From positions 5,223,097 to 5,287,096 of the forward strand of contig CM082598.2 of the NCBI GenBank assembly GCA_040954595.2: 64,000 bases of DNA, read 5' to 3'. The position numbers were made by a program, and so were the translations under genes. The notes under the pieces were generated by a model. That model did not search any database. It was given only the letters and a program-made list of their open reading frames with translations, and was not told the DNA's origin. The DNA is from Balanoglossus misakiensis. Taxonomy: Eukaryota; Animalia; Hemichordata. Shown here in pieces: positions 1,546-40,202 of this stretch (positions are counted from its first letter, which is position 1; each line of letters opens with the position of its first letter).

Positions 1546-1678
1546 TCAATTGTTTTCATGGATTCGACAAGTACAACAGGTGTTAATGCTTATCCAATCC
1601 CATATATATTGGTTTTTCTCCTCGGACCACACGTATGCTACGTTCCATGATGGTTTGGCCAGACAGCTAGATGAATAC
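1546..1678 (-). CDS. Neurotrophin exon 5 (C-half of cystine knot, stop)
   Basis: (M)YSSSCLAKPSWNVAYVWSEEKNQYIWDWISINTCCTCRIHENN-TGA; CCTTCGCAG acceptor. Confidence 0.9.
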
Positions 1679-3278
1679 CTGCGAAGGAATGGAAACAATA
1701 TTTGACTATAATAGCTCTATGTAAATATAAATATGTCTCTCTGCCTGCCTGTATGTTTGTTTGTTTGTTCATTGTGGCCACTCGCGATCGCATGAATATA
1801 TCTCAGTGCTTATTGGGCCAACGTCGGTGTCACTTTGATGCAGTGCCTGTGTTATCAGTTTTCTGGTCTTTATACTGAATAATGTAGTTGATCAGTTGTC
1901 ATATATTCTCGCAGCTGCGGATAGCGATGGTTGCACATACTTAACTCGCCAAAATGAATAATCAGTGTTTACCATTTATTCATTTTGGTTGGATTTTTAC
2001 TCTCATATCCTACAAATTGGATGGAAGTTGTGTGTGGTCGAACGTTGATTCACTATATATCCACATGTACATTAACATAAATTGTGTCTTGTATCAAACA
2101 TAATTAATGGAAAAAGGGCAGCGAGAGAGAGACTTTGTCCCTTTAATAGTATACTGTAACCCCTGTAAATTTACCATGGACAGTAGAGATTAAGTACATC
2201 TCGGATTTTTACTTGGACTGCCAAGCGGTAAACCGCGGGCTACTTACTACTTGATCGTGAGCAGACTCGACCTCCACATTTAACCATATATGGGCATGAG
2301 TGAACTAGGGGCAACGGCTGAAAGAAAGCCTAAGGTATAACTATTGATATAAACTGTAAAATTTCCAAATCGTGTTTGGAGATAGTATTTTTTTCACTTT
2401 TCGTCAAGGCTTGCCACAATGAAAACGGATTGACCTGCACAGAAGGAATGTACTGACCTTTGTTTGTTTAATAAGTAACTACGTGATAGTATAAATTGTT
2501 GCAAGTCTCAGTTGAAAAAAAGGGTTTATTGTATAAATTGTTGCAAGTGTAACAAAGACATGCGTTGAAACCCAAATGAGTTGTGTTTAGATACATTCTT
2601 ATCAGTAAAGCAATCATTGCGGTGTAGACGACAGGTGGCTTTTCGCCTTGAATGGGAAATGCATACAAAGTGTTTCTTTTTTTCGGTGTCAATCAAAAGA
2701 AATAACGGTGCTCAGTACTTTCATTCTGTGCAGCTCGAACTGTTTTGATTGTAAGACGCTTTACACCACCTACATGTCTGCTATTCCTGTGCACGGTCCT
2801 GTCTTGTTAAGACAAGTTGTGACGTGAAAATACTGGTTGTCGTAGAGGGTGACTCTTTCCCCTTCGCGGTTCAAACCGTGGCTGAGTGAACGCCACTCGC
2901 TGCTGCTTCTGCAAACCTCCCGAAATGGTTCACCTCTCTTGTTCTAATTAAAAAAAGAAGAGTTATGATTTAAGGGAGTCAAACTATTAATCACATTCAG
3001 AATCTTTAAAGAGATATTACACCTTATTTCTTTCTTTATGTTGTGATTTGGTTCGATAAAACGCCGAAATATCATTCATTCATTCATTCATTCATTCATT
3101 CATTCATTCATTCATTCATTCATTCATTCATTCATCCATCCATTCATTCATTCATTCATTCATTCATTCATTCATTCATACATCCATCCACCTGGCCCCC
3201 ACACATACATACATACATACATACATACATACATACATACATACATACATACATACATACATACATACATACATACAT

Positions 3279-3365
<87 letters not shown>

Positions 3366-6300
3366 TGCATACATGCATACATGCATACATACATACATAC
3401 ATACATACATACATACATGTACACTTTTGGACGAAAATTGTCAAAAACGCCAAATTCTTGACTTTGCCTATTTTTTTTTGTCATTTTTGGAGGTTTTTCA
3501 TGGATTATAGCTCATGAAAATCATCCAAAAATGAAAATTTTTCGACTTTGCGAAGTTTCAAAATTTCTTCATTTTTTTTACAAAATCATGGGTTATAGCT
3601 CATGATAATCGTCCAAAAATGACAATTTTTCGACTTTGCGAATTTTCAAAATTTCTTCAATTTTTCACAAAAATCATGGGTTATAACTCATGAAAATCAT
3701 GCAAAAATGACAATTTTTCGACTTTGCGAATTTTCAAAATTTCTTCAATTTTTGACAAAAATCATGGGTTATAGCTCATGAAAATCATGCAAAAATGACA
3801 TTTTTTCGACTTTGCGAATTTTCAAAATTTCTTCAATTTTTGACAAAAATCATGGGTTATAGCTCATGAAAATCATCCAAAAATGACAATTTTTCGACTT
3901 TGCGAAGTTTCAAAATTTCTTCATTTTTTGACAAAATCATGGGTTATAGCTCATGATAATCATCCAAAAATGACAATTTTTCGACTTTGTGAAGTTTCAA
4001 AATTTCTTCAATTATTGACAAAAATCATGGGTTATAGCTCATGAAAATCGTCCAAAAATGACAATTTTTCGACTTTGCGAATTTTCAAAATTTCTTCAAT
4101 TTTTGACAAAAATCATGGGTTATAGAACATGATAATCGTCCAAAAATGACAATTTTTCGACTTTGCGAATTTTCAAAAATTCTTCATTTTTTGACAAAAA
4201 TCATGGGTTATAGCTCATGATAATCATCCAAAAATGACAATTTTTCGACTTTGCGAATTTTCAAAAATTCTTCATTTTTTGACAAAAATCATGGGTTATA
4301 GCTCATGATAATCATCCAAAAATGACAATTTTTCGACTTTGCGAATTTTCAAAATTTCTTCAATTTTTGACAAAAATCATGGGTTATAGCTCATGAAAAT
4401 CATCCAAAAATGACAATTTTTCGACTTTGCGAATTATCAAAATTTCTTCAATTTTTGACAAAAATCATGGGTTATAGCTCATGAAAATCATCCAAAAATG
4501 ACAATTTTTCGACTTTGCGAATTTTCAAAATTTCTTCAATTTTTGACAAAAATCATGGGTTATAGCTCATGAAAATCATCCAAAAATGACAATTTTTCGA
4601 CTTTGCGAATTTTCAAAATTTCTTCAATTTTTGACAAAAATCATGGGTTATAGCTCATGAAAATCATCCAAAAATGACAATTTTTCGACTTTGCGAATTA
4701 TCAAAATTTCTTCAATTTTTGACAAAAATCATGGGTTATAGCTCATGAAAATCATCCAAAAATGACAATTTTTCGACTTTGCGAATTATCAAAATTGCTT
4801 CAATTTTTGACAAAAATCATGGGTTATAGCTCATGAAAATCATCCAAAAATGACAATTTTTCGACTTTGCGAATTTTCAAAATTTCTTCAATTTTTGACA
4901 AAAATCATGGGTTATAGCTCATGAAAATCATCCAAAAATGACAATTTTTCGACTTTGCGAATTTTCAAAATTTCTTCAATTTTTGACAAAAATCATGGGT
5001 TATAGCTCATGAAAATCATCCAAAAATGACAATTTTTCGACTTTGCGAATTTTCAAAATTTCTTCAATTTTTGACAAAAATCATGGGTTATAGCTCATGA
5101 AAATCATCCAAAAATGACAATTTTTCGACTTTGCGAATTTTCAAAATTTCTTCAATTTTTGACAAAAATCATGGGTTATAGCTCATGAAAATCATCCAAA
5201 AATGACAATTTTTCGACTTTGCGAATTTTCAAAATTTCTTCAATTTTTGACAAAAATCATGGGTTATAGCTCATGAAAATCATCCAAAAATGACAATTTT
5301 TCGACTTTGCGAATTTTCAAAATTTCTTCAATTTTTGACAAAAATCATGGGTTATAGCTCATGAAAATCATCCAAAAATGACAATTTTTCGACTTTGCGA
5401 ATTTTCAAAATTTCTTCAATTTTTTGACAAAAATCATGGGTTATAGCTCATGAAAATCATCCAAAAATGACAATTTTTCGACTTTGCGAATTTTCAAAAT
5501 TTCTTCAATTTTTTGACAAAAAGCATGGGTTATAGCTCATGAAAATCATCCAAAAATGACAATTTTTCGACTTTGCGAATTTTCAAAATTTCTTCAATTT
5601 TTGACAAAAATCATGGGTTAAAGCTCATGAAAATCATCCAAAAATGACAATTTTTCGACTTTGCGAATTTTCAAAATTTCTTCAATTTTTGACAAAAATC
5701 ATGGGTTAAAGCTCATGAAAATCATCCAAAAATGACAATTTTTCGACTTTGCGAATTATCAAAATTTCTTCAATTTTTGACAAAAATCATGGGTTATAGC
5801 TCATGAAAATCATCCAAAAATGACAATTTTCCGACTTTGCGAATTTTCAAAATTTCTTCAATTTTTGACAAAAATCATGGGTTATAGCTCATGAAAATCA
5901 TCCAAAAATGACAATTTTTCGACTTTGCGAATTTTCAAAATTTCTTCATTTTTTGACAAAAATCATGGGTTATAGCTCATGAAAATCATCCAAAAATGAC
6001 AATTTTTCGACTTTGCGAATTATCAAAATTTCTTCAATTTTTGACAAAAATCATGGGTTATAGCTCATGAAAATCATCCAAAAATGACAATTTTCCGACT
6101 TTGCGAATTTTCAAAATTTCTTCAATTTTTGACAAAAATCATGGGTTATAGCTCATGAAAATCATCCAAAAATGACAATTTTTCGACTTTGCGAATATTC
6201 AAAATTTCTTCATTTTTTGACAAAAATCATGGGTTATAGCTCATGAAAATCATCCAAAAATGATAATTTTTCGACTTTGCGAATTTTCAAAATTTCTTCA

Positions 6301-9300
6301 ATTTTTGACAAAAATCATGGGTTATAGCTCATGAAAATCATCCAAAAATGACAATTTTTCGACTTTGCGAAGTTTCAAAATTTCTTCATTTTTTTTACAA
6401 AATCATGGGTTATAGCTCATGATAATCGTCCAAAAATGACAATTTTTCGACTTTGCGAATTTTCAAAATTTCTTCAATTTTTCACAAAAATCATGGGTTA
6501 TAACTCATGAAAATCATGCAAAAATGACAATTTTTCGACTTTGCGAATTTTCAAAATTTCTTCAATTTTTGACAAAAATCATGGGTTATAGCTCATGAAA
6601 ATCATGCAAAAATGACATTTTTTCGACTTTGCGAATTTTCAAAATTTCTTCAATTTTTGACAAAAATCATGGGTTATAGCTCATGAAAATCATCCAAAAA
6701 TGACAATTTTTCGACTTTGCGAAGTTTCAAAATTTCTTCATTTTTTGACAAAATCATGGGTTATAGCTCATGATAATCATCCAAAAATGACAATTTTTCG
6801 ACTTTGTGAAGTTTCAAAATTTCTTCAATTATTGACAAAAATCATGGGTTATAGCTCATGAAAATCGTCCAAAAATGACAATTTTTCGACTTTGCGAATT
6901 TTCAAAATTTCTTCAATTTTTGACAAAAATCATGGGTTATAGAACATGATAATCGTCTAAAAATGACAATTTTTCGACTTTGCGAATTTTCAAAAATTCT
7001 TCATTTTTTGACAAAAATCATGGGTTATAGCTCATGATAATCGTCCAAAAATGACAATTTTTCGACTTTGCGAATTTTCAAAAATTCTTCATTTTTTGAC
7101 AAAAATCATGGGTTATAGCTCATGATAATCATCCAAAAATGACAATTTTTCGACTTTGCGAATTTTCAAAAATTCTTCATTTTTTGACAAAAATCATGGG
7201 TTATAGCTCATGATAATCATCCAAAAATGACAATTTTTCGACTTTGCGAATTTTCAAAAATTCTTCAATTTTTGACAAAAATCATGGGTTATAGCTCATG
7301 ATAATCGTCCAAAAATGACAATTTTTCGACTTTGCGAATTTTCAAAAATTCTTCATTTTTTGACAAAAATCATGGGTTATAGCTCATGATAATCATCCAA
7401 AAATGACAATTTTTCGACTTTGCGAATTTTCAAAATTTCTTCAATTTTTGACAAAAATCATGGGTTATAACTCATGAAAATCATCCAAAAATGACAATTT
7501 TTCGACTTTGCGAATTATCTAAATTTCTTCAATTTTTGACAAAAATCATGGGTTATAGCTCATGAAAATCATCCAAAAATGACAATTTTTCGACTTTGCG
7601 AATTTTCAAAATTTCTTCAATTTTTGACAAAAATCATGGGTTATAGCTCATGAAAATCATCCAAAAATGACAATTTTTCGACTTTGCGAATTATCAAAAT
7701 TTCTTCAATTTTTGACAAAAATCATGGGTTATAGCTCATGAAAATCATCCAAAAATGACAATTTTTCGACTTTGCGAATTATCAAAATTTCTTCAATTTT
7801 TGACAAAAATCATGGGTTATAGCTCATGAAAATCATCCAAAAATGACAATTTTTCGACTTTGCGAATTTTCAAAATTTCTTCAATTTTTGACAAAAATCA
7901 TGGGTTATAGCTCATGAAAATCATCCAAAAATGACAATTTTTCGACTTTGCGAATTTTCAAAATTTCTTCAATTTTTGACAAAAATCATGGGTTATAGCT
8001 CATGAAAATCATCCAAAAATGACAATTTTTCGACTTTGCGAATTTTCAAAATTTCTTCAATTTTTGACAAAAATCATGGGTTATAGCTCATGAAAATCAT
8101 CCAAAAATGACAATTTTTCGACTTTGCGAATTTTCAAAATTTCTTCAATTTTTGACAAAAATCATGGGTTATAGCTCATGAAAATCATCCAAAAATGACA
8201 ATTTTTCGACTTTGCGAATTTTCAAAATTTCTTCAATTTTTGACAAAAATCATGGGTTATAGCTCATGAAAATCATCCAAAAATGACAATTTTTCGACTT
8301 TGCGAATTTTCAAAATTTCTTCAATTTTTGACAAAAATCATGGGTTAAAGCTCATGAAAATCATCCAAAAATGACAATTTTTCGACTTTGCGAATTTTCA
8401 AAATTTCTTCAATTTTTGACAAAAATCATGGGTTAAAGCTCATGAAAATCATCCAAAAATGACAATTTTTCGACTTTGCGAATTATCAAAATTTCTTCAA
8501 TTTTTGACAAAAATCATGGGTTATAGCTCATGAAAATCATCCAAAAATGACAATTTTTCGACTTTGCGAATTTTCAAAATTTCTTCAATTTTTTGACAAA
8601 AATCATGGGTTATAGCTCATGAAAATCATCCAAAAATGACAATTTTTCGACTTTGCGAATTTTCAAAATTTCTTCAATTTTTGACAAAAATCATGGGTTA
8701 TAGCTCATGAAAATCATCCAAAAATGACAATTTTTCGACTTTGCGAATTTTCAAAATTTCTTCAATTTTTGACAAAAATCATGGGTTAAAGCTCATGAAA
8801 ATCATCCAAAAATGACAATTTTTCGACTTTGCGAATTTTCAAAATTTCTTCAATTTTTGACAAAAATCATGGGTTAAAGCTCATGAAAATCATCCAAAAA
8901 TGACAATTTTTCGACTTTGCGAATTATCAAAATTTCTTCAATTTTTGACAAAAATCATGGGTTATAGCTCATGAAAATCATCCAAAAATGACAATTTTCC
9001 GACTTTGCGAATTTTCAAAATTTCTTCAATTTTTGACAAAAATCATGGGTTATAGCTCATGAAAATCATCCAAAAATGACAATTTTTCGACTTTGCGAAT
9101 TTTCAAAATTTCTTCATTTTTTGACAAAAATCATGGGTTATAGCTCATGAAAATCATCCAAAAATGACAATTTTTCGACTTTGCGAATTATCAAAATTTC
9201 TTCAATTTTTGACAAAAATCATGGGTTATAGCTCATGAAAATCGTCCAAAAATGACAATTTTCCGACTTTGCGAATTTTCAAAATTTCTTCAATTTTTGA

Positions 9301-12300
9301 CAAAAATCATGGGTTATAGCTCATGAAAATCATCCAAAAATGACAATTTTTCGACTTTGCGAATATTCAAAATTTCTTCATTTTTTGACAAAAATCATGG
9401 GTTATAGCTCATGAAAATCATCCAAAAATGATAATTTTTCGACTTTGCGAATTTTCAAAATTTCTTCATTTTTTGACAAAAATCATGGGTTATAGCTCAT
9501 GAAAATCATCCAAAAATGACAATTTTTCGACTTTGCGAATTTTCAAAATTTCTTCAATTTTTGACAAAAATCATGGGTTATAGCTCATGAAAATCATCCA
9601 AAAATGACAATTTTTCGACTTTGCGAATTTTCAAAATTTCTTCAATTTTTTGACAAAAATCATGGGTTATAGCTCATGAAAATCATCCAAAAATGACAAT
9701 TTTTCGACTTTGCGAATTTTCAAAATTTCTTCAATTTTTGACAAAAATCATGGGTTATAGCTCATGAAAATCATCCAAAAATGACAATTTTTCGACTTTG
9801 CGAATTTTCAAAATTTCTTCAATTTTTGACAAAAATCATGGGTTATAGCTCATGAAAATCATCCAAAAATGACAATTTTTCGACTTTGCGAATTTTCAAA
9901 ATTTCTTCAATTTTTGACAAAAATCATGGGTTATAGCTCATGAAAATCATCCAAAAATGACAATTTTTCGACTTTGCGAATTTTCAAAATTTCTTCAATT
10001 TTTGACAAAAATCATGGGTTAAAGCTCATGAAAATCATCCAAAAATGACAATTTTTCGACTTTGCGAATTTTCAAAATTTCTTCAATTTTTGACAAAAAT
10101 CATGGGTTAAAGCTCATGAAAATCATCCAAAAATGACAATTTTTCGACTTTGCGAATTATCAAAATTTCTTCAATTTTTGACAAAAATCATGGGTTATAG
10201 CTCATGAAAATCATCCAAAAATGACAATTTTTCGACTTTGCGAATTTTCAAAATTTCTTCAATTTTTGACAAAAATCATGGGTTATAGCTCATGAAAATC
10301 ATCCAAAAATGACAATTTTTCGACTTTGCGAATTTTCAAAATTTCTTCAATTTTTTGACAAAAATCATGGGTTATAGCTCATGAAAATCATCCAAAAATG
10401 ACAATTTTTCGACTTTGCGAATTTTCAAAATTTCTTCAATTTTTGACAAAAATCATGGGTTATAGCTCATGAAAATCATCCAAAAATGACAATTTTTCGA
10501 CTTTGCGAATTTTCAAAATTTCTTCAATTTTTGACAAAAATCATGGGTTAAAGCTCATGAAAATCATCCAAAAATGACAATTTTTCGACTTTGCGAATTT
10601 TCAAAATTTCTTCAATTTTTGACAAAAATCATGGGTTATAGCTCATGAAAATCATCCAAAAATGACAATTTTTCGACTTTGCGAATTTTCAAAATTTCTT
10701 CAATTTTTGACAAAAATCATGGGTTAAAGCTCATGAAAATCATCCAAAAATGACAATTTTTCGACTTTGCGAATTTTCAAAATTTCTTCAATTTTTGACA
10801 AAAATCATGGGTTAAAGCTCATGAAAATCATCCAAAAATGACAATTTTTCGACTTTGCGAATTTTCAAAATTTCTTCAATTTTTGACAAAAATCATGGGT
10901 TAAAGCTCATGAAAATCATCCAAAAATGACAATTTTTCGACTTTGCGAATTTTCAAAATTTCTTCAATTTTTGACAAAAATCATGGGTTATAGCTCATGA
11001 AAATCATCCAAAAATGACAATTTTCCGACTTTGCGAATTTTCAAAATTTCTTCAATTTTTGACAAAAATCATGGGTTATAGCTCATGAAAATCATCCAAA
11101 AATGACAATTTTTCGACTTTGCGAATTTTCAAAATTTCTTCATTTTTTGACAAAAATCATGGGTTATAGCTCATGAAAATCATCCAAAAATGACAATTTT
11201 TCGACTTTGCGAATTTTCAAAATTTCTTCAATTTTTGACAAAAATCATGGGTTATAGCTCATGAAAATCATCCAAAAATGACAATTTTCCGACTTTGCGA
11301 ATTTTCAAAATTTCTTCAATTTTTGACAAAAATCATGGGTTATAGCTCATGAAAATCATCCAAAAATGACAATTTTTCGACTTTGCGAATTTTCAAAATT
11401 TCTTCATTTTTTGACAAAAATCATGGGTTATAGCTCATGAAAATCATCCAAAAATGATAATTTTTCGACTTTGCGAATTTTCAAAATTTCTTCATTTTTT
11501 GACAAAAATCATGGGTTATAGCTCATGAAAATCATCCAAAAATGACAATTTTTGGACTTTGCGAATTTTCAAAATTTCTTCATTTTTTGACAAAAATCAT
11601 GGGTTATAGCTCATGAAAATCATCCAAAAATGACAATTTTTCGACTTTGCGAATTTTCAAAATTTCTTCAATTTTTGACAAAAATCATGGGTTATAGCTC
11701 ATGAAAATCATCCAAAAATGACAATTTTTCGACTTTGCGAATTTTCAAAATTTCTTCAATTTTTGACAAAAATCATGGGTTATAGCTCATGAAAATCATC
11801 CAAAAATGACAATTTTCCGACTTTGCGAATTTTCAAAATTTCTTCAATTTTTGACAAAAATCATGGGTTATAGCTCATGAAAATCATCCAAAAATGACAA
11901 TTTTCCGACTTTGCGAATTTTCAAAATTTCTTCAATTTTTGACAAAAATCATGGGTTATAGCTCATGAAAATCATCCAAAAATGACAATTTTCCGACTTT
12001 GCGAATTTTCAAAATTTCTTCAATTTTTGACAAAAATCATGGGTTATAGCTCATGAAAATCATCCAAAAATGACAATTTTCCGACTTTGCGAATTTTCAA
12101 AATTTCTTCAATTTTTGACAAAAATCATGGGTTATAGCTCATGAAAATCATCCAAAAATGACAATTTTCCGACTTTGCGAATTTTCAAAATTTCTTCAAT
12201 TTTTGACAAAAATCATGGGTTATAGCTCATGAAAATCATCCAAAAATGATAATTTTTCGACTTTGCGAATTTTTAAAATTTCTTCAATTTTTGACAAAAA

Positions 12301-15300
12301 TCATGGGTTATAGCTCATGAAAATCATCCAAAAATGACAATTTTCCGACTTTGCGAATTTTCAAAATTTCTTCAATTTTTGACAAAAATCATGGGTTATA
12401 GCTCATGAAAATCATCCAAAAATGATAATTTTTCGACTTTGCGAATTTTCAAAATTTCTTCAATTTTTGACAAAAATCATGGGTTATAGCTCATGAAAAT
12501 CATCCAAAAAGGATAATTTTTCGACTTTGCGAATTTTTAAAATTTCTTCAATTTTTGACAAAAATCATGGGTTATAGCTCATGAAAATCATCCAAAAATG
12601 ACTATTTTTCGACTTTGCGAATTTTCAAAATTTCTTCAATTTTTGACAAAAATCATGGGTTATAGCTCATGAAAATCATCCAAAAATGACTATTTTTCGA
12701 CTTTGCGAATTTTCAAAATTTCTTCAATTTTTGACAAAAATCATGGGTTATAGCTCATGAAAATCATCCAAAAATGACTATTTTTCGACTTTGCGAATTT
12801 TCAAAATTTCTTCAATTTTTGACAAAAATCATGGGTTATAGCTCATGAAAATCATCCAAAAATGACTATTTTTCGACTTTGCGAATTTTCAAAATTTCTT
12901 CAATTTTTGACAAAAATCATGAGTTATAGCTCATGAAAATCATCCCAAAATGACTATTTTTCGACTTTGCGAATTTTCAAAATTTCTTCAATTTTTGACA
13001 AAAATCATGGGTTATAGCTCATGAAAATCATCCAAAAATGACAATTTTCCGACTTTGCGAATTTTCAAAATTTCTTCAATTTTTGACAAAAATCATGGGT
13101 TATAGCTCATGAAAATCATCCAAAAATGACAATTTTCCGACTTTGCGAATTTTCAAAATTTCTTCAATTTTTGACAAAAATCATGGGTTATAGCTCATGA
13201 AAATCATCCAAAAATGACAATTTTCCGACTTTGCGAATTTTCAAAATTTCTTCAATTTTTGACAAAAATTATGGGTTATAGCTCATGAAAATCATCCAAA
13301 AATGATAATTTTTCGACTTTGCGAATTTTCAAAATTTCTTCAATTTTTGACAAAAATCATGGGTTATAGCTCATGAAAATCATCCAAAAATGATAATTTT
13401 TCGACTTTGCGAATTTTTAAAATTTCTTCAATTTTTGACAAAAATCATGGGTTATAGCTCATGAAAATCATCCAAAAATGACTATTTTTCGACTTTGCGA
13501 ATTTTCAAAATTTCTTCAATTTTTGACAAAAATCATGGGTTATAGCTCATGAAAATCATCCAAAAATGACTATTTTTCGACTTTGCGAATTTTCAAAATT
13601 TCTTCAATTTTTGACAAAAATCATGGGTTATAGCTCATGAAAATCATCCAAAAATGACTATTTTTCGACTTTGCGAATTTTCAAAATTTCTTCAATTTTT
13701 GACAAAAATCATGGGTTATAGCTCATGAAAATCATCCAAAAATGACTATTTTTCGACTTTGCGAATTTTCAAAATTTCTTCAATTTTTGACAAAAATCAT
13801 GGGTTATAGCTCATGAAAATCATCCCAAAATGACTATTTTTCGACTTTGCGAATTTTCAAAATTTCTTCAATTTTTGACAAAAATCATGGGTTATAGCTC
13901 ATGAAAATCATCCCAAAATGACTATTTTTCGACTTTGCGAATTTTCAAAATTTCTTCAATTTTTGACAAAAATCATGGGTTATAGCTCATGAAAATCATC
14001 CAAAAATGATAATTTTTCGACTTTGCGAATTTTCAAAATTTCTTCAATTTTTGACAAAAATCATGGGTTATAGCTCATGAAAATCATCCAAAAATGACTA
14101 TTTTTCGACTTTGCGAATTTTCAAAATTTCTTCAATTTTTGACAAAAATCATGGGTTATAGCTCATGAAAATCATCCAAAAATGACTATTTTTCGACTTT
14201 GCGAATTTTCAAAATTTCTTCAATTTTTGACAAAAATCATGGGTTATAGCTCATGAAAATCATCCAAAAATGACTATTTTTCGACTTTGCGAATTTTCAA
14301 AATTTCTTCAATTTTTGACAAAAATCATGAGTTATAGCTCATGAAAATCATCCCAAAATGACTATTTTTCGACTTTGCGAATTTTCAAAATTTCTTCAAT
14401 TTTTGACAAAAATCATGGGTTATAGCTCATGAAAATCATCCCAAAATGACTATTTTTCGACTTTGCGAATTTTCAAAATTTCTTCAATTTTTGACAAAAA
14501 TCATGGGTTATAGCTCATGAAAATCATCCCAAAATGACTATTTTTCGACTTTGCGAATTTTCAAAATTTCTTCAATTTTTGACAAAAATCATGGGTTATA
14601 GCTCATGAAAATCATCCAAAAATGACAATTTTTCGACTTTGCGAATTTTCAAAATTTCTTCAATTTTTGACAAAAATCATGGGTTATAGCTGATGAAAAT
14701 CATCCAAAAATGACAATTTTTCGACATTGCGAATTTTCAAAATTTCTTCAATTTTTGACAAAAATCATGGGTTATAGCTCATGAAAATCATCCAAAAATG
14801 ACTATTTTTCGACTTTGCGAATTTTCAAAATTTCTTCAATTTTTGACAAAAATCATGGGTTATAGCTCATGAAAATCATCCAAAAATGACTATTTTTCGA
14901 CTTTGCGAATTTTCAGAATTTTTTCAATTTTTGACAAAAATCATGGGTTATAGCTCATGAAAATCATCCAAAAATGACTATTTTTCGACTTTGCGAATTT
15001 TCAAAATTTCTTCAATTTTTGACAAAAATCATGGGTTATAGCTCATGAAAATCATCTAAAAATGAATATTTTTCGACTTTGCGAATTTTCAAAATTTCTT
15101 CAATTTTTGACAAAAATCATGGGTTATAGCTCATGAAAATCATCCAAAAATGATAATTTTTCGACTTTGCGAATTTTCAAAATTTCTTCAATTTTTGACA
15201 AAAATCATGGGTTATAGCTCATGAAAATCATCCAAAAATGACTATTTTTCGACTTTGCGAATTTTCAAAATTTCTTCAATTTTTGACAAAAATCATGGGT

Positions 15301-18300
15301 TATAGCTCATGAAAATCATCCAAAAATGACTATTTTTCGACTTTGCGAATTTTCAAAATTTCTTCAATTTTTGACAAAAATCATGGGTTATAGCTCATGA
15401 AAATCATCCAAAAATGACTATTTTTCGACTTTGCGAATTTTCAAAATTTCTTCAATTTTTGACAAAAATCATGGGTTATAGCTCATGAAAATCATCCAAA
15501 AATGACTATTTTTCGACTTTGCGAATTTTCAAAATTTCTTCAATTTTTGACAAAAATCATGGGTTATAGCTCATGAAAATCATCCCAAAATGACTATTTT
15601 TCGACTTTGCGAATTTTCAAAATTTCTTCATTTTTTGACAAAAATCATGGGTTATAGCTCATGAAAATCATCCAAAAATGACAATTTTTCGACTTTGCGA
15701 ATTTTCAAAATTTCTTCAATTTTTGACAAAAATCATGGGTTATAGCTCATGAAAATCATCCAAAAATGACAATTTTTCGACTTTGCGAATTTTCAAAATT
15801 TCTTCAATTTTTGACAAAAATCATGGGTTATAGCTCATGAAAATCATCCAAAAATGACAATTTTTCGACTTTGCGAATTTTCAAAATTTCTTCAATTTTT
15901 GACAAAAATCATGGGTTATAGCTGATGAAAATCATCCAAAAATGACAATTTTTCGACATTGCGAATTTTCAAAATTTCTTCAATTTTTGACAAAAATCAT
16001 GGGTTATAGCTCATGAAAATCATCCAAAAATGACAATTTTTCGACTTTGCGAATTTTCAAAATTTCTTCAATTTTTGACAAAAATCATGGGTTATAGCTC
16101 ATGAAAATCATCCAAAAATGACAATTTTTCGACTTTGCGAATTTTCAAAATTTCTTCAATTTTTGACAAAAATCATGGGTTATAGCTCATGAAAATCATC
16201 CAAAAATGACAATTTTTCGACTTTGCGAATTTTCAAAATTTCTTCAATTTTTGACAAAAATCATGGGTTATAGCTCATGAAAATCATCCAAAAATGACAA
16301 TTTTTCGACTTTGCGAATTTTCAAAATTTCTTCAATTTTTGACAAAAATCATGGGTTATAGCTCATGAAAATCATCCAAAAATGACAATTTTTCGACTTT
16401 GCGAATTTTCAAAATTTCTTCAATTTTTGACAAAAATCATGGGTTATAGCTCATGAAAATCATCCAAAAATGACAATTTTTCGACTTTGCGAATTTTCAA
16501 AATTTCTTCATTTTTTGACAAAAATCATGGGTTATAGCTCATGAAAATCATCCAAAAATGACAATTTTTCGACTTTGCGAATTTTCAAAATTTCTTCAAT
16601 TTTTGACAAAAATCATGGGTTATAGCTCATGAAAATCATCCAAAAATGACAATTTTTCGACTTTGCGAATTTTCAAAATTTCTTCAATTTTTGACAAAAA
16701 TCATGGGTTATAGCTCATGAAAATCATCCAAAAATGACAATTTTTCGACTTTGCGAATTTTCAAAATTTCTTCAATTTTTGACAAAAATCATGGGTTATA
16801 GCTGATGAAAATCATCCAAAAATGACAATTTTTCGACATTGCGAATTTTCAAAATTTCTTCAATTTTTGACAAAAATCATGGGTTATAGCTCATGAAAAT
16901 CATCCAAAAATGACAATTTTTCGACTTTGCGAATTTTCAAAATTTCTTCAATTTTTGACAAAAATCATGGGTTATAGCTCATGAAAATCATCCAAAAATG
17001 ACAATTTTTCGACTTTGCGAATTTTCAAAATTTCTTCAATTTTTGACAAAAATCATGGGTTATAGCTCATGAAAATCATCCAAAAATGACAATTTTTCGA
17101 CTTTGCGAATTTTCAAAATTTCTTCAATTTTTGACAAAAATCATGGGTTATAGCTCATGAAAATCATCCAAAAATGACAATTTTTCGACTTTGCGAATTT
17201 TCAAAATTTCTTCAATTTTTGACAAAAATCATGGGTTATAGCTCATGAAAATCATCCAAAAATGACAATTTTTCGACTTTGCGAATTTTCAAAATTTCTT
17301 CAATTTTTGACAAAAATCATGGGTTATAGCTCATGAAAATCATCCAAAAATGACAATTTTTCGACTTTGCGAATTTTCAAAATTTCTTCAATTTTTGACA
17401 AAAATCATGGGTTATAGCTCATGAAAATCATCCAAAATGACAATTGTTCGACTTTGCGAATTTTCAAAATTTCTTCAATTTTTGACAAAAATCATGGGTT
17501 ATAGCTCATGAAAATTATGCAAAAATGACAGTTTTTCTACTTTGCGAATTTTCAAAATGTCTTCAATTTTAGACAAAAATCATGGGTTATAGCTCATGAA
17601 AATCGTCCAAAAATGACAATTTTTCGACTTTGCGAATTTTCAAAATTTCTTCAATTTTTGACAAAAATCATGGGTTATAGCTCATGAAAATCATTCAAAA
17701 ATGACAATTTTTCGACTTTGTGAATTTTCAAAATTTCTTCAATTTTTGACAAAAATCATGGGTTATAGCTCATGAAAATCATCCAAAAATGACAATTTTT
17801 CGACTTTGCGAATTTTCAAAATTTCTTCAATTTTTGAGAAAAATCATGGGTTATAGCTCATGAAAATCGTCCAAAATGATAATTTTTCTACTTTGCGAAT
17901 TTTCAAAATTTCTTCATTTTTAAAAAAAAGCATGGGTTTAAGCTCATACATGTACATACATACATACATACATACATACATACATACATACATACATACA
18001 TACATACATACATACATACATACATACATACATACATACATACATACATACATACATACATACATACATACATACATACATACATACATACATACATACA
18101 TACATACATACATACATAAATTACAAATTTGAAAAGTCAAAACTATCTTAACAATAACTATCTAAACAATAACAATATCAGTATCTTACCACTTGTAATG
18201 TGTCGACCACAGCATTATTATCATCACCTTCAGACCAAGCGTAATCGTCGGCAGGTTGAACGTCTGGCAGAAAGTCGGGTTTTTGGGTAGAGAACATAAC

Positions 18301-21241
18301 TCGATCGGAATTGAGCGCCGGGTGGCCTTTTATGTGATCATAAAAGTCCATGATTTCGTTTCTGGTGACGTTCATCTGGGTGTCTGTCAGCTTCGTGTCA
18401 CTGCTCTTTTCCATCACTCTGATGACGCGCTGAGATAAATCTGTTCGGATTAAGTGAATGCACATTTAATTTCAAGTAGTAAGACTGCAAAATGAAAGTC
18501 TTTCACTGATTCTCATATTTCTCTCAAAACATCTGTAGAATACGTCTAGTAGTCCATCTTAAAACTGAGAAAACAAATTTGGGGACACCATGCAATAAGG
18601 TACTTGAGGTTCCCTCACGCTTGTTGATTTACAGTACATGTTCATATATCGACACCTACTTACCATGCAACAGAAGTTTCAGCATACCATTGTCATAATC
18701 GCGTCCTGGTTCGCCCTGAAACGTTGGCATGGTTTTTGCGTCCGAGTCAGGATCTAGTAAAAAATATTCAAAAAGTAGGAATTGTCTTAGAAACATCCAC
18801 CTGTTTTACGTTGAAACATTCACTTCAACAAACTTTACCTTTTTCATTACGTGTGAACATTATTTTGTTTTCTTTTGTTTTGTTTTTTATTCCGAAAAAA
18901 AACAAGTAATCGCACGCACGCAAGCAGGCATGCATGTATATACATAGCCACACGCTAACACATGTGTGAACAAACACCATTTTTCTAAATTTCTGTTTGC
19001 GCATGTGCATATATGTATTCATAAACGGCAATGCCATAACATTTTCTTTTAAATTATAAACTGTTTTACATGTACAGTAATAATAAGAATATGGACAAAA
19101 ATATTTACCAGATTCAATGCCAATGGTTGCTGCATATCCTGCAAAAAATAAAGCATCGTTATTCGTGCCATTATTTGTTACATGGAATTTAATTAGTATA
19201 TATGTGAATAATGGAAGGCTGAATATAGGTTAGTGTATTAAAGAGAAGGAGAAAAGGAGAGAGAGACAGAGAGAGACGGAGAGATCGATACAGTGTTTAA
19301 CACAAAGGAATTTTTATACAACCGATACCTCACCACATGTGCAGGTATATACATTAGACAATCAGCTCACTATCATGTCATCATTGAGCCGCATTGTAGT
19401 AACATGACGTCATATCAGGGATAATCTAGCTCCAAGCGTTTCCTGGCCTTCGGGAATTGTAATTTAATTATTTTCTGTCCCGTTATAATAACGTGATGTT
19501 ATCAGATGGGTATCTGCCATCTGATCCACTTTGCTTCCTTATTAAGCAATGAAGTGGAAAATTACCAACAAGAATACCAAGCAATTGCTTTATATCGTAC
19601 GCTCGTTTTTGTAGAGCAAAACCTGTTGATGATAAACAAAAATACTCCTCAAAAGACTGATTTTATTTTGCAAATATGATTATACTATGGAAGACGCAAC
19701 ACAGTCACTCCTGACCATGACTGAAACAATACTAAAACAACAAAACATAACAAACAAACTACTTGACCTTGCCTTGGGTTTTTGCTCGCTCACGTTTGCT
19801 GTTTTATTCCCTTTAACTCGACCCCACATGTTTAATGTCTGTATTAATTTACCATTCTATTATGCACTTTTTCTAAGAGAACTAATGCTAAAGTAGTATG
19901 TACCTCCAAACTTTCCAATTCTCTGATATACTAAACAGGTTGGGAGTCTTTATGAAAACCAAGAATAAAACGGGGTGTTAATTCACCATCTTGTTTTCAT
20001 GAACATCTCTACTTAAATTTTTTCCAAAGACCTAACACAGATTGGCGGCAATTTCGAATTTGAGAAAATTTTGCTCTGTCATTCAAAATTTTAAACTAAC
20101 AACCACAGCATTTTAATTATTGAAATTTAAACAAATTAATCGGAAAAGTGATCTTTAAATTTTAATCAGCGATTTCGAAGAAAGTAATATGCCTATTAAA
20201 ACTCTGAGACGCCGTTTTGTTGAGAATATGCACGAGTGTTTCATTATTCTGTAAATACGACCCTAATCTGAGAGAGTTACACTTTTACATTTATGTTTTT
20301 CTCAATCCGTCATTTTAAGACACAAAGCAAACATAAACTTGCAAAACACCAAATTTTGGTGATTCAGAAATAAAACTCGTATAAAGATCTTTATATTTAT
20401 ATGTAGGTCATTGGTGTAAAAAATATTTTTAGACCATGAAATTTGCAATATTATTAAAATGTGTTATCAGGAACCGCAAATCTACCTTAACATAAAATTC
20501 TTAGGTGATGTTTAAAAGATGTTGAGTGCTACTTGTTGGAAGTGGTGCTGGGGCGTAAAATGGTTAAGTAGGGACAATTTGAAATCTTAGACTATTTAAT
20601 TATAATAATGCGCCCACTTTAGCTGATGACTAAAATAATGATATTATTTTTCTTGTTCTTCAGGGAATTGGTGACTGGAATTATATTAGAATCAGTGGTG
20701 TGTGACCAGACTGTGGACAGTATAGACTCTGGCTATCGTGAATGATGAACACAGAAAAGAAAGTCATGTGATGACTAGCATATGCTCGGAATCTCCATCC
20801 TCAAGTCCTGCTGAACAGCAAGCCTTGGGAGGCGTTTACATTAAATGGTAAATTTTAGATCAGTCTTCTTTTTTTCGTAAACTCCACCAGAAAATTGTCA
20901 GTGGATGGTACATTGAAAACTGGTGAATTTACATATAAAGTGTTAGATACAAATTGTGAACACTCTCCTTTAAGTTTGAACTTAAAAGACACAGATAAAA
21001 CATCGTGTCGATTGCGATGAGCAATTTTTGCGTGCCCCATTGTAATTCCAGCGATATGTTACAATTATGGGAATAATTTCGTTTCTGCTATTATAGACTG
21101 TGTATGCTGCAATCTATGAAATACATGTGGACCTAAGATCCTACAAAGAGTAGTAAAGTGTTTATGCTCACCTATTTGTGGGATAATACAGAGGCAATAT
21201 GCAGCCACCACAAGAAAGCCGTGAACAGCACTAGTCTTCAT
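1546..21241 (-). CDS. Prepro-neurotrophin (NGF/BDNF/NT-3 family cystine-knot growth factor), complete, 5 coding exons, 217 aa
   Basis: Exons 21241-21172, 19138-19109, 18440-18190, 2943-2774, 1678-1546. All introns are GT-AG with phases 1,1,0,2; total 654 nt. Protein: signal MKTSAVHGFLVVAAYCLCIIPQIGYA; prodomain with SDRVMFSTQKP (cf. proNGF SPRVLFSTQPP); dibasic KR; mature GEPFREVCRSSSEWRSLSHGLNREGERVTLYDNQYFHVTTCLNKTGPCTGIADMYSSSCLAKPSWNVAYVWSEEKNQYIWDWISINTCCTCRIHENN*. The mature part follows the NGF pattern VCxSxSxW...QYFxxTxC...CxGI...SxC...WxxIxIxTxCxC. Confidence 0.9.
1944..2146. mobile_element. MITE family A, half copy (neurotrophin intron 4)
   Basis: Ends GAGACTTTGTCCCTTTAA. Confidence 0.75.
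2774..2943 (-). CDS. Neurotrophin exon 4 (KR cleavage site and N-half of cystine knot)
   Basis: NKRGEPFREVCRSSSEW...NQYFHVTTCLNKTGPCTGIAD; TTTTTTAATTAG acceptor, GTAGGT donor. Confidence 0.9.
3072..3418. repeat. Compound microsatellite (TTCA)n/(ACAT)n/(AC)n on the left flank of the satellite
   Basis: Directly visible. Confidence 0.95.
3499..17946. repeat. 88-bp satellite DNA array, ~164 head-to-tail monomers (~14.4 kb), inside neurotrophin intron 3
   Basis: Consensus ATGGGTTATAGCTCATGAAAATCATCCAAAAATGACAATTTTTCGACTTTGCGAATTTTCAAAATTTCTTCAATTTTTGACAAAAATC, period 88 (e.g. 4203 to 4291). Near-identical copies, more diverged at both edges. Confidence 0.97.
17946..18117. repeat. (TACA)n microsatellite on the right flank of the satellite
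   Basis: Directly visible. Confidence 0.95.
18190..18440 (-). CDS. Neurotrophin exon 3 (prodomain)
   Basis: DLSQRVIRVMEK...NSDRVMFSTQKPDF...DTLQV; GAACAG acceptor, GTAAGA donor. Confidence 0.85.
19109..19138 (-). CDS. Neurotrophin exon 2 (30-nt micro-exon, end of signal peptide)
   Basis: TTTTTTGCAG acceptor, (G)YAATIGIES(D), GTAAAT donor, phase 1-1. Confidence 0.65.
21172..21241 (-). CDS. Neurotrophin exon 1 (signal peptide)
   Basis: ATG at 21241, MKTSAVHGFLVVAAYCLCIIPQI(G), donor GTGAGC in phase 1, TATA box just upstream. Confidence 0.8.
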
Positions 21242-21263
21242 CCTTCTTCTGAGTTCTAAGACA

Positions 21264-21300
21264 AACTGAGCCCTGCTTTGGTTTTACAGCTGGTTTTATA
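21264..21300 (-). promoter_or_regulatory. Neurotrophin core promoter (TATA + Inr)
   Basis: TATAAAA at 21300-21294 and an Inr-like TCAGTT at 21269-21264 about 30 nt downstream, ~25 nt before the ATG. Confidence 0.55.
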
Positions 21301-22266
21301 TGCAATTGCACTCGCGCCTCTCACTGTTCCAAGGCGCAAGGCACTAACTAATTAGCATAAACAGTCCCTGGGCGGCCGGAAGTCAAGACACTATTGAAAC
21401 ACAATGACGCATTGTCAAGTTGATGTTTGAAAAACATGTTGACAGAAAAGTGGGGACCCTGAAAGTCTTAACGTCATTCTGTGACATTGAGAAGTATTCA
21501 TGGATTTTTTCCGTCAATTGAAAACGATGATGATCAAATCGCCCAACATTATCCTGAGAGGTGATTTTTGCTAAGCAGTGTAGTTTTAAAGCACTCTCAA
21601 CATTTTTCTATGTGGTTAAATTATCATTGGTAGCAATTTACTAGTGTATTCAAATGATCATGTCATGTACAGGTAGTAGTTTTTGAAACTGGTAAACTCA
21701 CTAGTCGTTAAAACAGGACTACTAAAAGACTAAAACATTCCGAAATAGACCTTGTGACTTTGTTTTTTGCGTCTGGCCATTGTATCATCTCAAATATTCG
21801 CTTACCGTTGCACTTGTCATTGCTGCTTGAATAGTCATTGTTTAGAGTAGTGGAAAATTGCAGCCTGCCATCTGGATATGAACTCGGCACTTCATGGCAA
21901 GTGAAACGCGAATCTTGAGTTAATCTCGGGAGAAGTCGTGACATTCGCCTCCCTGTCAAGAGTTGTTGTTATCGAGTGCGTGAACAACAAGAGGGCTTAA
22001 CGAGCACAGCCGCTCACGACGTGGATCTTCAACACTCAATTTGCCACTTTCAGCTTATTTTATCATTGATAATATATTTCAACTTTCTCCTTGTACTTAG
22101 TATATACAGACGACACTGTTTTGAATTTGCAGAGATTCTAATATCCATGTGCACATACTACAATAGTTGTGTACTCTTGCAATGGACAGCTGAATAAATG
22201 GGTGTGGCACTAGTAAAATTTGATATAGAGAGAATTGGAAGGTTTGTCCCCGAGGTGCATTCTACT

Positions 22267-22445
22267 TTAAAGACACCTCCAATTTGTATATGTCCATATA
22301 TGGCAAAATGGTATATCTGAGTGTTCATAGGAACATATGGTAGTAGTCTTTTTTTCACGTGTGCCACCAACTGAAAAGCTGTGATTTGCTAGATTTGGTA
22401 TGGTAACTGTAGCTAAATTTCTGTAGGTGAGTGATTACTTTAGGT
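22267..22445 (-). mobile_element. MITE family B, old degenerate copy
   Basis: Diverged similarity to 34368-34560. Confidence 0.6.
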
Positions 22446-22784: not shown

Positions 22785-22863
22785 TACATACATACATACA
22801 TACCTACCTGTACCTACCTACCTACCTACCTACCTACCTACCTACCTACCTACCTACCTACCT

Positions 22864-22955
<92 letters not shown>
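22785..22955. repeat. (TACC)n/(CA)n microsatellite
   Basis: Directly visible. Confidence 0.9.
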
Positions 22956-22957
<2 letters not shown>

Positions 22958-23000
22958 TACAGTCTAACCATGCAGCTGACTCTAAAAACTTTCATTTCAG

Positions 23001-23219
23001 AAAATATTGCCCTCAACAAACTCGTCAGTGGCAAACGCTTGATTGGTGGACAAAATACATGGCCCAATCTCGTTGATGGTGATCCGACCACGTGTGCTGA
23101 TTCCGGCCCCCTCGTCCATAACCCAGCTTTCAAGATTGATCTTGGCCAGGAGTACATTGTTCACAGTGTTAAACTAAGATTTGCATCTGGATGCAAAAAC
23201 ACCATCAGTGGGAATGGAT
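23001..23219 (+). pseudogene. Orphan duplicated F-type lectin exon (copy of 52038-52256), open frame, intact splice sites
   Basis: TTTCAG acceptor, ENIALNKLVSGKRLIGGQNTWPNLVDGDPTTCADSGPLVHNPAFKIDLGQEYIVHSVKLRFASGCKNTISGNG, GTAAGT donor. Flanking intron ~22955-23370 also matches ~51990-52400. No partner exons seen nearby. Confidence 0.75.
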
Positions 23220-23366
23220 GTAAGTCACTATAATATAAGCCCATCCATCCAATGTCCCCTCCCGTCAATTCAATCAAGCCATCACTCCTTCACCGACCCA
23301 GTGCGTACAAACTACCACCTATATAACCACTCGCCCATCCACCCACCCACACCAAAACATTCATAT

Positions 23367-23367
<1 letters not shown>

Positions 23368-23398
<31 letters not shown>

Positions 23399-23530
23399 CA
23401 TACATACATACATACATACATACATACATACATACATACATACATACATACATACATACATACATACATACATACATACATACATACATACATACATACA
23501 TACATACATACATACATACATACATACATG

Positions 23531-39781: not shown

Positions 39782-40008
39782 GTTGTGTGTGTGCTACTGC
39801 TATACAGGGCAGGGCCTTTAAAGATGTAACCGGGAGGGGGGGGCGTGGTAAATCGCGAGTGGAGTCGGGCTGGGTACTCTCGGCAGCAAACCTCTCTGTA
39901 AACATAAAATGAAAATATTACAGAAACAAACTCAAAATGCATAATACCGACACACCGATAGACTGAGAAAATTGTTCAGTTTACAAAGGTTTTCCGGTTT
40001 ATATAGGT

Positions 40009-40202
40009 TTAAAGGTATACGGTCACCTATGGAAAATTGTCTATAGTTACCATGGCAAATTGAGATCTAGCCAATCACAGATTTTCAGTGGGTGGCACAC
40101 GCGAAAAAAGAGCGCCACCATATATGTTCTTTAGAATGCTCAAATACGCCATTTCAGCCATATATGGGCGTATGTAAATTGGAGGTGACTGTATACCTTT
40201 AA
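40009..40202 (+). mobile_element. MITE family B copy
   Basis: TTAAAGGTATAC...GTATACCTTTAA. Confidence 0.8.

What the first reader, a model, noticed from the sequence alone, without database searches (positions are those of the whole stretch)
1546..21241. Hidden, complete intron-split invertebrate neurotrophin gene
Seen: five small exons splice in phase to a 217-aa precursor with signal peptide, prodomain, KR site and a 97-aa cystine knot. Only the prodomain exon appears in the ORF track. Known: vertebrate NGF, BDNF and NT-3 encode the pro and mature regions in one exon and share the prodomain motif RV(L/M)(F/L)S, here RVMFSTQKP versus proNGF RVLFSTQPP. The mature part has VC.S.S.W, QYF..T.C, C.GI, S.C and W..I.I.T.C.C. 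Inference: a genuine invertebrate neurotrophin (putative Trk/p75 ligand) with an intron inside the mature domain, which automated annotation could miss or fragment.
Basis: partly seen in the sequence, partly recalled or inferred. Interest (0 to 1): 0.85.

Follow-up and report, generated by a model that had tools for sequence, protein, structure and literature searches.

The report
Acorn-worm six-exon NT2-type neurotrophin gene
This gene, likely from an acorn worm, has six exons predicted to splice into a secreted relative of nerve growth factor that likely pairs through an extra cysteine; it belongs to an already described intron-split group of invertebrate neurotrophins, so it is an ordinary new member rather than a new kind.

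Summary
The missed 90-nt exon (18753-18664) carries a motif present in 7 of 7 close relatives. It raises the profile score from 289 to 334 bits, and 0 of 300 shuffles reach that. The nearest relatives are annotated acorn-worm proteins (Ptychodera and Glandiceps, each 65 of 97 mature residues identical), then Saccoglossus and crinoids. The family matches neurotrophins far better than Spaetzle: profile E 3e-16 against 0.02, fold Z 12.1 against 6.8. It shows the marks Wilson 2009 gave for the ambulacrarian NT2/NTa/NTb group: many exons, Asn in place of Asp30, and a seventh cysteine beside knot cysteine V. In a predicted homodimer of the closest relative, that cysteine meets its twin across the axis. 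No RNA run was listed and no genome was held, so splicing and receptors are untested. The scan has noted other neurotrophin-fold genes in other genomes. Verdict: new member of a known kind.

The parts
21294..21300 (-). TATA-like box (TATAAAA), 33 nt before an initiator-like site
   Evidence: Only match of the pattern in the 160 nt upstream of the ATG; function inferred
21264..21269 (-). Initiator-like TCAGTT, likely transcription start region (consensus recalled)
   Evidence: inferred
21172..21241 (-). Exon 1 coding part: ATG and most of the predicted signal peptide (aa 1-23), phase-1 donor GTGAGC
   Evidence: hydropathy peak; 5 of 300 shuffles reach the real profile score
19109..19138 (-). 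Exon 2: 30-nt micro-exon (aa 24-33), likely supplies the signal-peptidase site after Ala26
   Evidence: One of only two acceptors that give stop-free phase-1/1 exons in 21171-18441; 0 of 300 shuffles reach the real score; crinoid isoforms differ by a 13-aa insert at this place
18664..18753 (-).
   Evidence: tblastn with Ptychodera P0004 E 2.2e-4, 53% over 30 aa; +45 bits, 0 of 300 shuffles; motif in 7 of 7 close relatives
18190..18440 (-). Exon 4: main prodomain exon (aa 64-147), predicted helices and the RVMFSTQKP motif
   Evidence: Profile E 3.5e-26; 46 of 84 identical to Ptychodera P0014; helices predicted at low overall confidence
3498..17947 (.). 88-bp satellite array (164 copies, 98% alike) filling intron 4, flanked on both sides by (TACA)n
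2774..2943 (-). Exon 5 (aa 148-203): KR cleavage site and first half of the mature knot (Cys I-III, Asn at the Asp30 position, conserved Gln)
   Evidence: Profile E 3.5e-21; no Pfam NGF hit on its own; alignment
1546..1678 (-). Exon 6 coding part (aa 204-247 and TGA): Cys IV, the extra Cys238, Cys V and VI
   Evidence: Pfam NGF E 0.0012, 19.4 bits, below the 27-bit cut-off as a fragment; NT-4 and NT-3 are its top PDB sequence hits; 72% identical to Glandiceps P0001
1368..1373 (-). AATAAA, likely poly(A) signal about 170 nt after the stop, with three ATTTA between
   Evidence: Only AATAAA in the 1,545 nt downstream; inferred

Best explanation
Six exons on the minus strand form an intact reading frame for a 247-aa neurotrophin-family precursor of the intron-split ambulacrarian NT2 type, likely from an acorn worm, which is predicted to be secreted and cut at KR into a 97-aa cystine knot that likely forms a homodimer locked by its seventh cysteine and would signal through Trk and/or p75. 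Shown: exon coordinates, splice dinucleotides, phases, an open frame, homology to annotated acorn-worm and crinoid proteins, and the residues that separate neurotrophins from Spaetzle. Predicted on the closest relative, not on this protein: the NGF fold and a homodimer in which the extra cysteines touch. Inferred: splicing in the animal (about 0.9), signal cleavage after Ala26, cutting at KR149-150 by a PC1/3- or PC2-type convertase rather than furin (about 0.7; enzyme preferences recalled), an interchain disulfide (about 0.75), and Trk/p75 as receptors (about 0.7).
For: Gene: (all five introns GT-AG; phases 1,1,1,0,2; TATA-like, initiator-like and AATAAA sites in the expected places). The last exon alone retrieved 9 proteins, 7 of them neurotrophin-family, including the curated Saccoglossus record NP_001161597. 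The six-exon model aligns end to end with Ptychodera P0004 (1-244 against 1-268, E 3e-80). Two Ptychodera isoforms differ by one Lys at the place of intron 4 (P0011/P0012), which fits a shared intron. Family: a profile of 7 relatives hits NT-3 at E 2.9e-16 and Spaetzle at 0.021. The AlphaFold2 model of P0014 matches NT-3 at Foldseek E 3.5e-8 against Spaetzle 3.9e-4, and NGF at Z 12.1 (rmsd 1.5, 88 aligned) against Spaetzle Z 6.8 (rmsd 5.4, 79 aligned). NT2-type marks from Wilson 2009 are present. Dimer: the P0014 mature domain scored 0.62 against a best control of 0.00 (3 controls), with runs agreeing in at least 91% of contacts and pLDDT at least 86; Cys239 touches Cys239 of the other copy. 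That mark was reached by 21 of 30 microbial one-chain pairs and 0 of 23 single chains, and by 17 of 29 eukaryotic pairs (animals 7 of 16) but only 1 of 7 without an older solved relative, so the pass may come from memory of NGF or Spaetzle dimers. Trk and p75 orthologs are reported for sea urchin and acorn worm (PMC2586362 passage).
Against: Splicing is not observed. The whole spliced protein was not scored against Pfam and not folded; fold and dimer rest on a relative that is 51% identical overall (65 of 97 in the mature part). The last exon alone stays under the Pfam cut-off, and exon 5 alone gives no NGF hit. The family also scores against Pfam Spaetzle: P0001 passes both cut-offs, and the two crinoid proteins score higher for Spaetzle than for NGF. 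An ESM Atlas search with P0001's mature part ranked Spaetzle clusters first (0.92, against 0.91 for an NGF-rich cluster). The vertebrate NGF consensus pattern is not matched. The trees leave the window's gene in an open fork (87/90) and lack sea-urchin and vertebrate rows. A Cys-Cys contact in a model is not a disulfide.
Confidence: 0.7

Rival explanations
1. The protein is a neurotrophin by descent but works like Spaetzle: a disulfide-linked dimer held inactive by a folded prodomain, which after cleavage activates a Toll-like receptor instead of, or besides, Trk.
For: It has the extra cysteine beside Cys V and Asn at the Asp30 position, both Spaetzle-like traits according to Wilson 2009. Pfam Spaetzle scores of relatives are close to the NGF scores, and higher in the crinoids. 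The Atlas ranked Spaetzle clusters first. The prodomain holds two conserved predicted helices (pLDDT 80-87 over residues 61-100). Zhu 2008 found acorn-worm NT the closest deuterostome NT to DNT1 and Spz (passages).
Against: Wilson's three residues that separate the families all fall on the neurotrophin side (no Pro13, Trp130 present, Ile133), and Pro136 is absent. Profile and fold matches favour NGF/NT-3 by wide margins. The prodomain shares the RV.[FL]S motif and its spacing with vertebrate proneurotrophins.
Confidence: 0.12
2. The precursor is poorly cut at its minimal KR site and acts mainly as an uncleaved proneurotrophin, through p75 and a sortilin-type co-receptor (vertebrate pathway recalled).
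For: The site lacks a P4 arginine, while several relatives carry longer basic runs. The prodomain is well conserved, 46 of 84 identical to P0014.
Against: A basic site stands just before the mature domain in 9 of 9 ambulacrarian relatives examined. Saccoglossus P0008 and Ptychodera P0006 also have a short KR site.
Confidence: 0.1
3. The first reader's five-exon, 217-aa form, without 18753-18664, is the main transcript.
For: The exon is symmetrical (phase 1/1), so skipping it keeps the frame. Crinoid and Ptychodera relatives have isoforms.
Against: Skipping costs 45 bits, the exon's motif is in 7 of 7 close relatives, and 0 of 300 shuffles reach the real score. None of the fetched isoforms of the close group lacks the motif.
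Confidence: 0.05
4. The locus is silent or misassembled: the 14.4-kb satellite disables splicing or joins two unrelated pieces.
For: A near-homogeneous array (98% alike) separates the pro and mature exons.
Against: All six exons are stop-free, in order, on one strand and in phase, with promoter-like and poly(A)-like sites. Both sides match the same relatives, P0014 and P0001. The array units show ordered variant blocks with diverged ends (43 unit types among 161).
Confidence: 0.03

Closest known systems
Ambulacrarian NT2/NTa/NTb neurotrophins (sea urchin Sp-NT2, Saccoglossus NTa and NTb; Wilson 2009 PMC2772990; Lauri 2016 PMC4812194)
   Same: Precursor split over several exons, Asn in place of Asp30, extra cysteine beside knot Cys V. 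Saccoglossus NP_001161597 is 55 of 96 identical in the mature part.
   Different: No Pro at Wilson's position 136 (Sp-NT2 has one). Sp-NT2 itself was not fetched, and which Saccoglossus record is NTa or NTb could not be told, because the paper's supplements were unreadable and its figures are not held.
Ptychodera flava P0014 (248 aa, named 'uncharacterized') and Glandiceps talaboti XP_078000040
   Same: Likely orthologs or close paralogs: 127 of 247 and 117 of 242 identical, each 65 of 97 in the mature part, with the same seven cysteines and prodomain motifs.
   Different: They have longer basic cleavage sites. The Glandiceps model starts without a clear signal peptide and has Thr at the Asp30 position.
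Vertebrate neurotrophins NGF, BDNF, NT-3, NT-4 (PF00243)
   Same: Signal-pro-mature layout, six-cysteine knot, NGF fold of the relative (Z 12.1), prodomain motif RV.[FL]S about 50 residues before Cys I.
   Different: Vertebrate precursors lie in one exon (Wilson 2009), have Asp30 and six cysteines, match the consensus pattern and form non-covalent dimers (the last point recalled).
Spaetzle (PF16077; PDB 3e07)
   Same: Related knot, multi-exon gene, extra cysteine for a covalent dimer, Asn at the Asp30 position.
   Different: Spaetzle has Pro13, an aromatic residue at 133 and no Trp130; this protein has the neurotrophin state at all three. Profile and fold matches are much weaker.

Membership tests
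Neurotrophin / NGF family (PF00243) | Six knot cysteines in NGF spacing and the conserved Gln | tested here: met
   Invariant columns with relatives; profile alignment to NT-3 and BDNF
Neurotrophin / NGF family (PF00243) | Pfam gathering score of 27 bits | tested here: inconclusive
   Last exon alone 19.4 bits; the spliced protein was not scanned. Of 7 relatives, 5 pass (29-37 bits); P0015 and P0016 do not
Neurotrophin / NGF family (PF00243) | Wilson's neurotrophin states: no Pro13, Trp130, Ile/Val133 | tested here: met
   positions mapped by me from the text, because Figure 3 is not held
Neurotrophin / NGF family (PF00243) | Signal peptide, prodomain and basic cleavage site before the knot | tested here: met
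   Hydropathy peak, KR149-150, prodomain motif; no signal-peptide predictor was run
Neurotrophin / NGF family (PF00243) | NGF fold | tested here: met
   On the relative P0014 only: Z 12.1, rmsd 1.5, 88 aligned; Foldseek E 3.5e-8
Neurotrophin / NGF family (PF00243) | Binds Trk and/or p75 | not testable with these tools
   No genome held and no receptor sequence fetched
Canonical single-exon neurotrophins (vertebrates, amphioxus NT, Sp-NT) | Whole precursor in one exon | tested here: not met
   Six coding exons
Canonical single-exon neurotrophins (vertebrates, amphioxus NT, Sp-NT) | Asp at the mammalian Asp30 position | tested here: not met
   Asn (compared)
Canonical single-exon neurotrophins (vertebrates, amphioxus NT, Sp-NT) | Vertebrate consensus pattern around Cys III-IV | tested here: not met
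   Pattern from Wilson's Figure 5 legend not matched
Ambulacrarian NT2/NTa/NTb group | Precursor split over several exons | tested here: met
   Wilson states this for Sp-NT2
Ambulacrarian NT2/NTa/NTb group | Asn in place of Asp30 | tested here: met
   among 9 ambulacrarian relatives 4 have Asn, 4 Thr and 1 Asp
Ambulacrarian NT2/NTa/NTb group | Extra Cys adjacent to knot Cys V (Sp-NT2, NTb) | tested here: met
   Cys238; present in 9 of 9 ambulacrarian relatives, absent in the oyster row P0007
Ambulacrarian NT2/NTa/NTb group | Clusters with Sp-NT2 and the Saccoglossus sequences in a tree | tested here: inconclusive
   Falls in an open fork (87/90) with Saccoglossus P0008, Ptychodera, Glandiceps and crinoids; no sea-urchin or vertebrate rows
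Spaetzle (PF16077) | Pro13, aromatic residue at 133, no Trp130 | tested here: not met
Spaetzle (PF16077) | Extra Cys at the dimer axis | tested here: met
   Cys238 present; Cys239-Cys239' contact in the predicted dimer of P0014, possibly from memory of solved dimers
Spaetzle (PF16077) | Activates Toll | not testable with these tools
   No receptor sequence available

The most novel reading that the evidence does not exclude
The intron-split NT2 lineage is a surviving deuterostome link between Spaetzle and neurotrophins: a disulfide-locked dimer with a folded helical prodomain, lying in the same ancestral linkage group as the vertebrate neurotrophins (next to CPT1), that signals through Toll-like receptors as well as or instead of Trk. 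Acorn worms would then be the place to see how one ligand family came to serve both receptor systems.
Probability: 0.12. Interest if true: 0.75.

Novelty: new member of a known kind. Interest (0 to 1): 0.27.

Why it matters
As a gene it is an expected member of a group described in 2009. It adds a full exon map for an acorn-worm member, which Wilson named as worth examining. It also adds a model in which the seventh cysteine sits on the dimer axis, and a CPT1 neighbour that falls in the vertebrate neurotrophin paralogon. The group's receptor was not reported in the papers my searches returned, so the sequence is a usable ligand for asking whether NT2-type proteins act on Trk/p75 or on Toll-like receptors.

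Tried and rejected
RNA evidence: no RNA holder was listed for 18100-21400, so no reads were laid; this is no evidence either way. Genome search for Trk, p75 and paralogs: no genome is held. Word-based searches with exon 5 and exon 4 alone found nothing, although close relatives exist. PDB sequence searches with those two exons gave only chance hits, to designed TIM barrels and G5 repeats. P0003 and P0005, 2 of the 9 hits, were dropped as repeat and ankyrin false matches. P0011, P0012 and P0013 were left out of the identity table and trees as near-duplicates or odd models, and P0010 out of the trees. tblastn hits of P0004 in the satellite are compositional noise. The prodomain's likeness to the N-terminal helix of proNT-3, seen by eye, was not confirmed: no NTF3_N hit in 7 relatives, and the Atlas first hit was an NT-3 cluster at only 0.81. 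The prodomain helices match no fold above background, and the model of exon 4 alone is low in confidence (mean pLDDT 61). A paper search for the Spaetzle interchain cysteine returned 0 papers; I rely on Wilson's statement. Wilson's supplements could not be read; they hold the alignments that would tell NTa from NTb. The neurotrophin genes are not in the stored, cut table of PMC8040251. An amphioxus origin, my first guess, was dropped once the nearest relatives proved to be acorn worms. Look-ups of earlier notes by place, by sequence and by the words 'acorn worm neurotrophin NT2' gave nothing.
Full report
Observation. A sixth exon lies between the second and third, at 18753-18664: 90 nt, phase 1/1, TAG acceptor, GTAAGT donor. 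In the 2.7 kb between exon 1 and the main prodomain exon, my filter found 5 stop-free phase-1/1 candidates from only two acceptors, those of the 30-nt exon and of this exon. The six-exon frame is 744 nt and 247 aa, with introns of 2,033, 355, 223, 15,246 and 1,095 nt, all GT-AG, in phases 1, 1, 1, 0 and 2. A TATA-like box (21300), an initiator-like site (21269) and a single AATAAA (1373) frame the gene (consensus sequences recalled). The long intron is almost all an 88-bp satellite, 164 copies at 98%. Splicing is not observed directly, and no whole genome is held.

Relatives. The last exon alone gave Pfam NGF E 0.0012 (below the cut-off) and Spaetzle E 0.012; the other four pieces scanned gave no NGF hit. 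Searched against 1.84 billion representatives it returned 9 proteins. Seven belong to this family: Glandiceps, two from Ptychodera, two from Saccoglossus (one the curated 'nerve growth factor-like protein precursor' NP_001161597), the crinoid Anneissia and the oyster Pinctada. Two were false matches. A profile search added two more Ptychodera proteins and Antedon. The six-exon protein is 127 of 247 identical to Ptychodera P0014 and 117 of 242 to Glandiceps P0001. Mature identities are 65 of 97 for both, 55 of 96 for Saccoglossus P0008, 41-43 of 97 for the crinoids and 32 of 94 for the oyster. The animal is therefore most likely an acorn worm, which agrees with unchecked notes on other pieces of this genome.

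Gene model. With a profile of 7 close relatives the six-exon model scores 334.4 bits, against 289.1 without the missed exon and 322.1 without the 30-nt exon. Shuffling the missed exon or the 30-nt exon reached the real score in 0 of 300 trials each; shuffling exon 1 did so in 5 of 300. The motif of the missed exon is in 7 of 7 close relatives and in none of the 3 distant ones. Isoform pairs of relatives differ at matching places: a 13-aa insert after the crinoid signal peptide, and one Lys at the pro/mature boundary in Ptychodera. This fits shared introns, though no relative's genome could be read.

Family. A profile of 7 relatives hits all four vertebrate neurotrophins in the PDB at E 3e-16 to 3e-13 and Spaetzle at 0.02; the two proNGF chains are matched from profile position 103-104, inside the prodomain. 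The AlphaFold2 model of P0014 (mean pLDDT 69, 82-94 over residues 161-240, pTM 0.40) matches NT-3 at Foldseek E 3.5e-8 against Spaetzle 3.9e-4. By VIA-align it matches NGF at Z 12.1 (rmsd 1.5, 88 aligned), coagulogen at 7.4 and Spaetzle at 6.8. Wilson's three separating positions are all in the neurotrophin state (mapped by me from the text). Against this, the family is borderline in Pfam: P0001 passes both cut-offs and the two crinoid proteins score higher for Spaetzle. The Atlas also ranked Spaetzle clusters first for P0001's mature part. In a published alignment (PMC3280201, supplementary file 3) human NGF, BDNF, NT-3 and NT-4 carry RV.[FL]S. Human proNGF shares 7 of 9 residues with the window's motif, with 50 versus 48 residues to Cys I (hand count). 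The motif is present in 9 of 9 ambulacrarian relatives.

Subtype. Wilson 2009 (PMC2772990) describes two types in ambulacrarians: a canonical single-exon Sp-NT, and a group of Sp-NT2 with Saccoglossus NTa and NTb. Sp-NT2 is split over several exons, the group has Asn in place of Asp30, and Sp-NT2 and NTb have an extra cysteine beside knot Cys V; Daphnia NT is predicted to have 6 exons. Lauri 2016 recovered the same cluster. The window's gene has all three marks, lacks the Pro136 of Sp-NT2 and does not match the vertebrate consensus pattern. My trees of 11 rows place it in an open fork (87/90 and 87/85) with the close acorn-worm and crinoid proteins, apart from a starred Saccoglossus/Ptychodera pair (P0009, P0016). 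They have no sea-urchin or vertebrate rows, so they do not settle orthology.

How it likely works. The hydrophobic N-terminus would direct secretion, with cleavage likely after Ala26, in the part coded by the 30-nt exon (inferred; no predictor run). The acidic prodomain (pI 4.5, one sequon) has two predicted helices and then a disordered linker. Cutting after KR149-150 would release a 97-aa, mildly acidic knot (pI 5.9, one sequon). Val at P4 points to a PC1/3- or PC2-type convertase rather than furin (recalled). Six cysteines form the knot and Cys238 is left over. Two copies of P0014's mature domain scored 0.62 against a best control of 0.00 (3 controls; contacts agree at least 91%; pLDDT at least 86; my alignment was not used). 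Cys239, the equivalent residue, touches Cys239 of the other copy. The mark was reached by 21 of 30 microbial one-chain pairs and 0 of 23 single chains, and by 17 of 29 eukaryotic pairs (animals 7 of 16) but only 1 of 7 without an older solved relative. The pass may thus come from memory of solved NGF or Spaetzle dimers, and a contact is not a bond. Wilson already suggested covalent dimers for this cysteine. Trk and p75 orthologs are reported in acorn worm and sea urchin (PMC2586362), so they are the default receptors; this step is untested.

Surroundings. The gene upstream on the same strand is a carnitine palmitoyltransferase 1 (CPT_N E 3.6e-24 at 39.5-39.8 kb, with further exons to at least 30.6 kb). 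In PMC3280201's supplementary table, CPT1A, CPT1B and CPT1C fall in the same paralogous sets as BDNF, NTF3 and NTF4, and PMC8040251's table puts CPT1 with LIN7 and KCNC in paralogon 6. This fits an old linkage of this gene with the vertebrate neurotrophin region. It is one neighbour, in a set of 227 families that may join two ancestral chromosomes, so it is weak evidence.

What was read. PMC2772990: abstract, passages, sections 10, 15 and 16; supplements unreadable and figures not held. PMC4812194, PMC2586362, PMC8605306, PMC7535936 and PMC11087794: passages. PMC3280201: passages, a supplement search and supplementary file 3. PMC8040251: supplement searches only. Searches for papers on hemichordate neurotrophins returned no functional study of this group; the library lacks most subscription journals.

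Verdict. The gene is a new member of a known kind. Interest 0.27. The bolder reading, a Toll-acting link between Spaetzle and neurotrophins, has probability about 0.12 and would deserve 0.75.

Noticed in passing
window 3498-17947: An 88-bp satellite of 164 copies fills intron 4. It is flanked on both sides by (TACA)n, has ordered blocks of unit variants with diverged ends and a repeated run of variants near its start, and has no other copy in the window.
   Followed up: partly
window about 30,600-39,800, minus strand: A carnitine palmitoyltransferase 1 gene whose vertebrate copies lie in the same paralogous sets as BDNF, NTF3 and NTF4.
   Followed up: partly
window 22,859-23,517, 50,307-50,541 and 51,886-52,547, plus strand: Repeated exons of a galactose-binding F5/8-type (fucolectin-like, name recalled) domain: a 94%-identical 670-bp copy lies at about 22.9 and 51.9 kb, on either side of CPT1, with more such exons to 55.5 kb.
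   Followed up: no
window 60,736-62,911, plus strand: Sulfotransferase exons.
   Followed up: no
proteins P0008, P0009 (Saccoglossus); P0004, P0011, P0012, P0014, P0016 (Ptychodera): Each set shares one contig length (261,871 and 53,098,162), which suggests linked neurotrophin paralogs in acorn worms; a paralog may lie beyond the left end of the window. P0009 and P0016 form a separate, more canonical-looking clade that still has the extra cysteine.
   Followed up: no
window 18,664-18,753 and the start of 18,190-18,440: The first prodomain helix resembles by eye the N-terminal helix of vertebrate proNT-3; Pfam did not confirm it and the Atlas gave only a lead (0.81).
   Followed up: partly
window 2,937-2,943: A second AG lies 6 nt inside exon 5; its use would remove the Lys of the KR site. 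A Ptychodera isoform lacks one Lys at this junction.
   Followed up: no
window 22,268-22,430, 30,405-30,570, 34,377-34,546, 36,185-36,347, 40,023-40,193: A dispersed repeat of about 170 bp in at least five copies, 76-78% alike.
   Followed up: no
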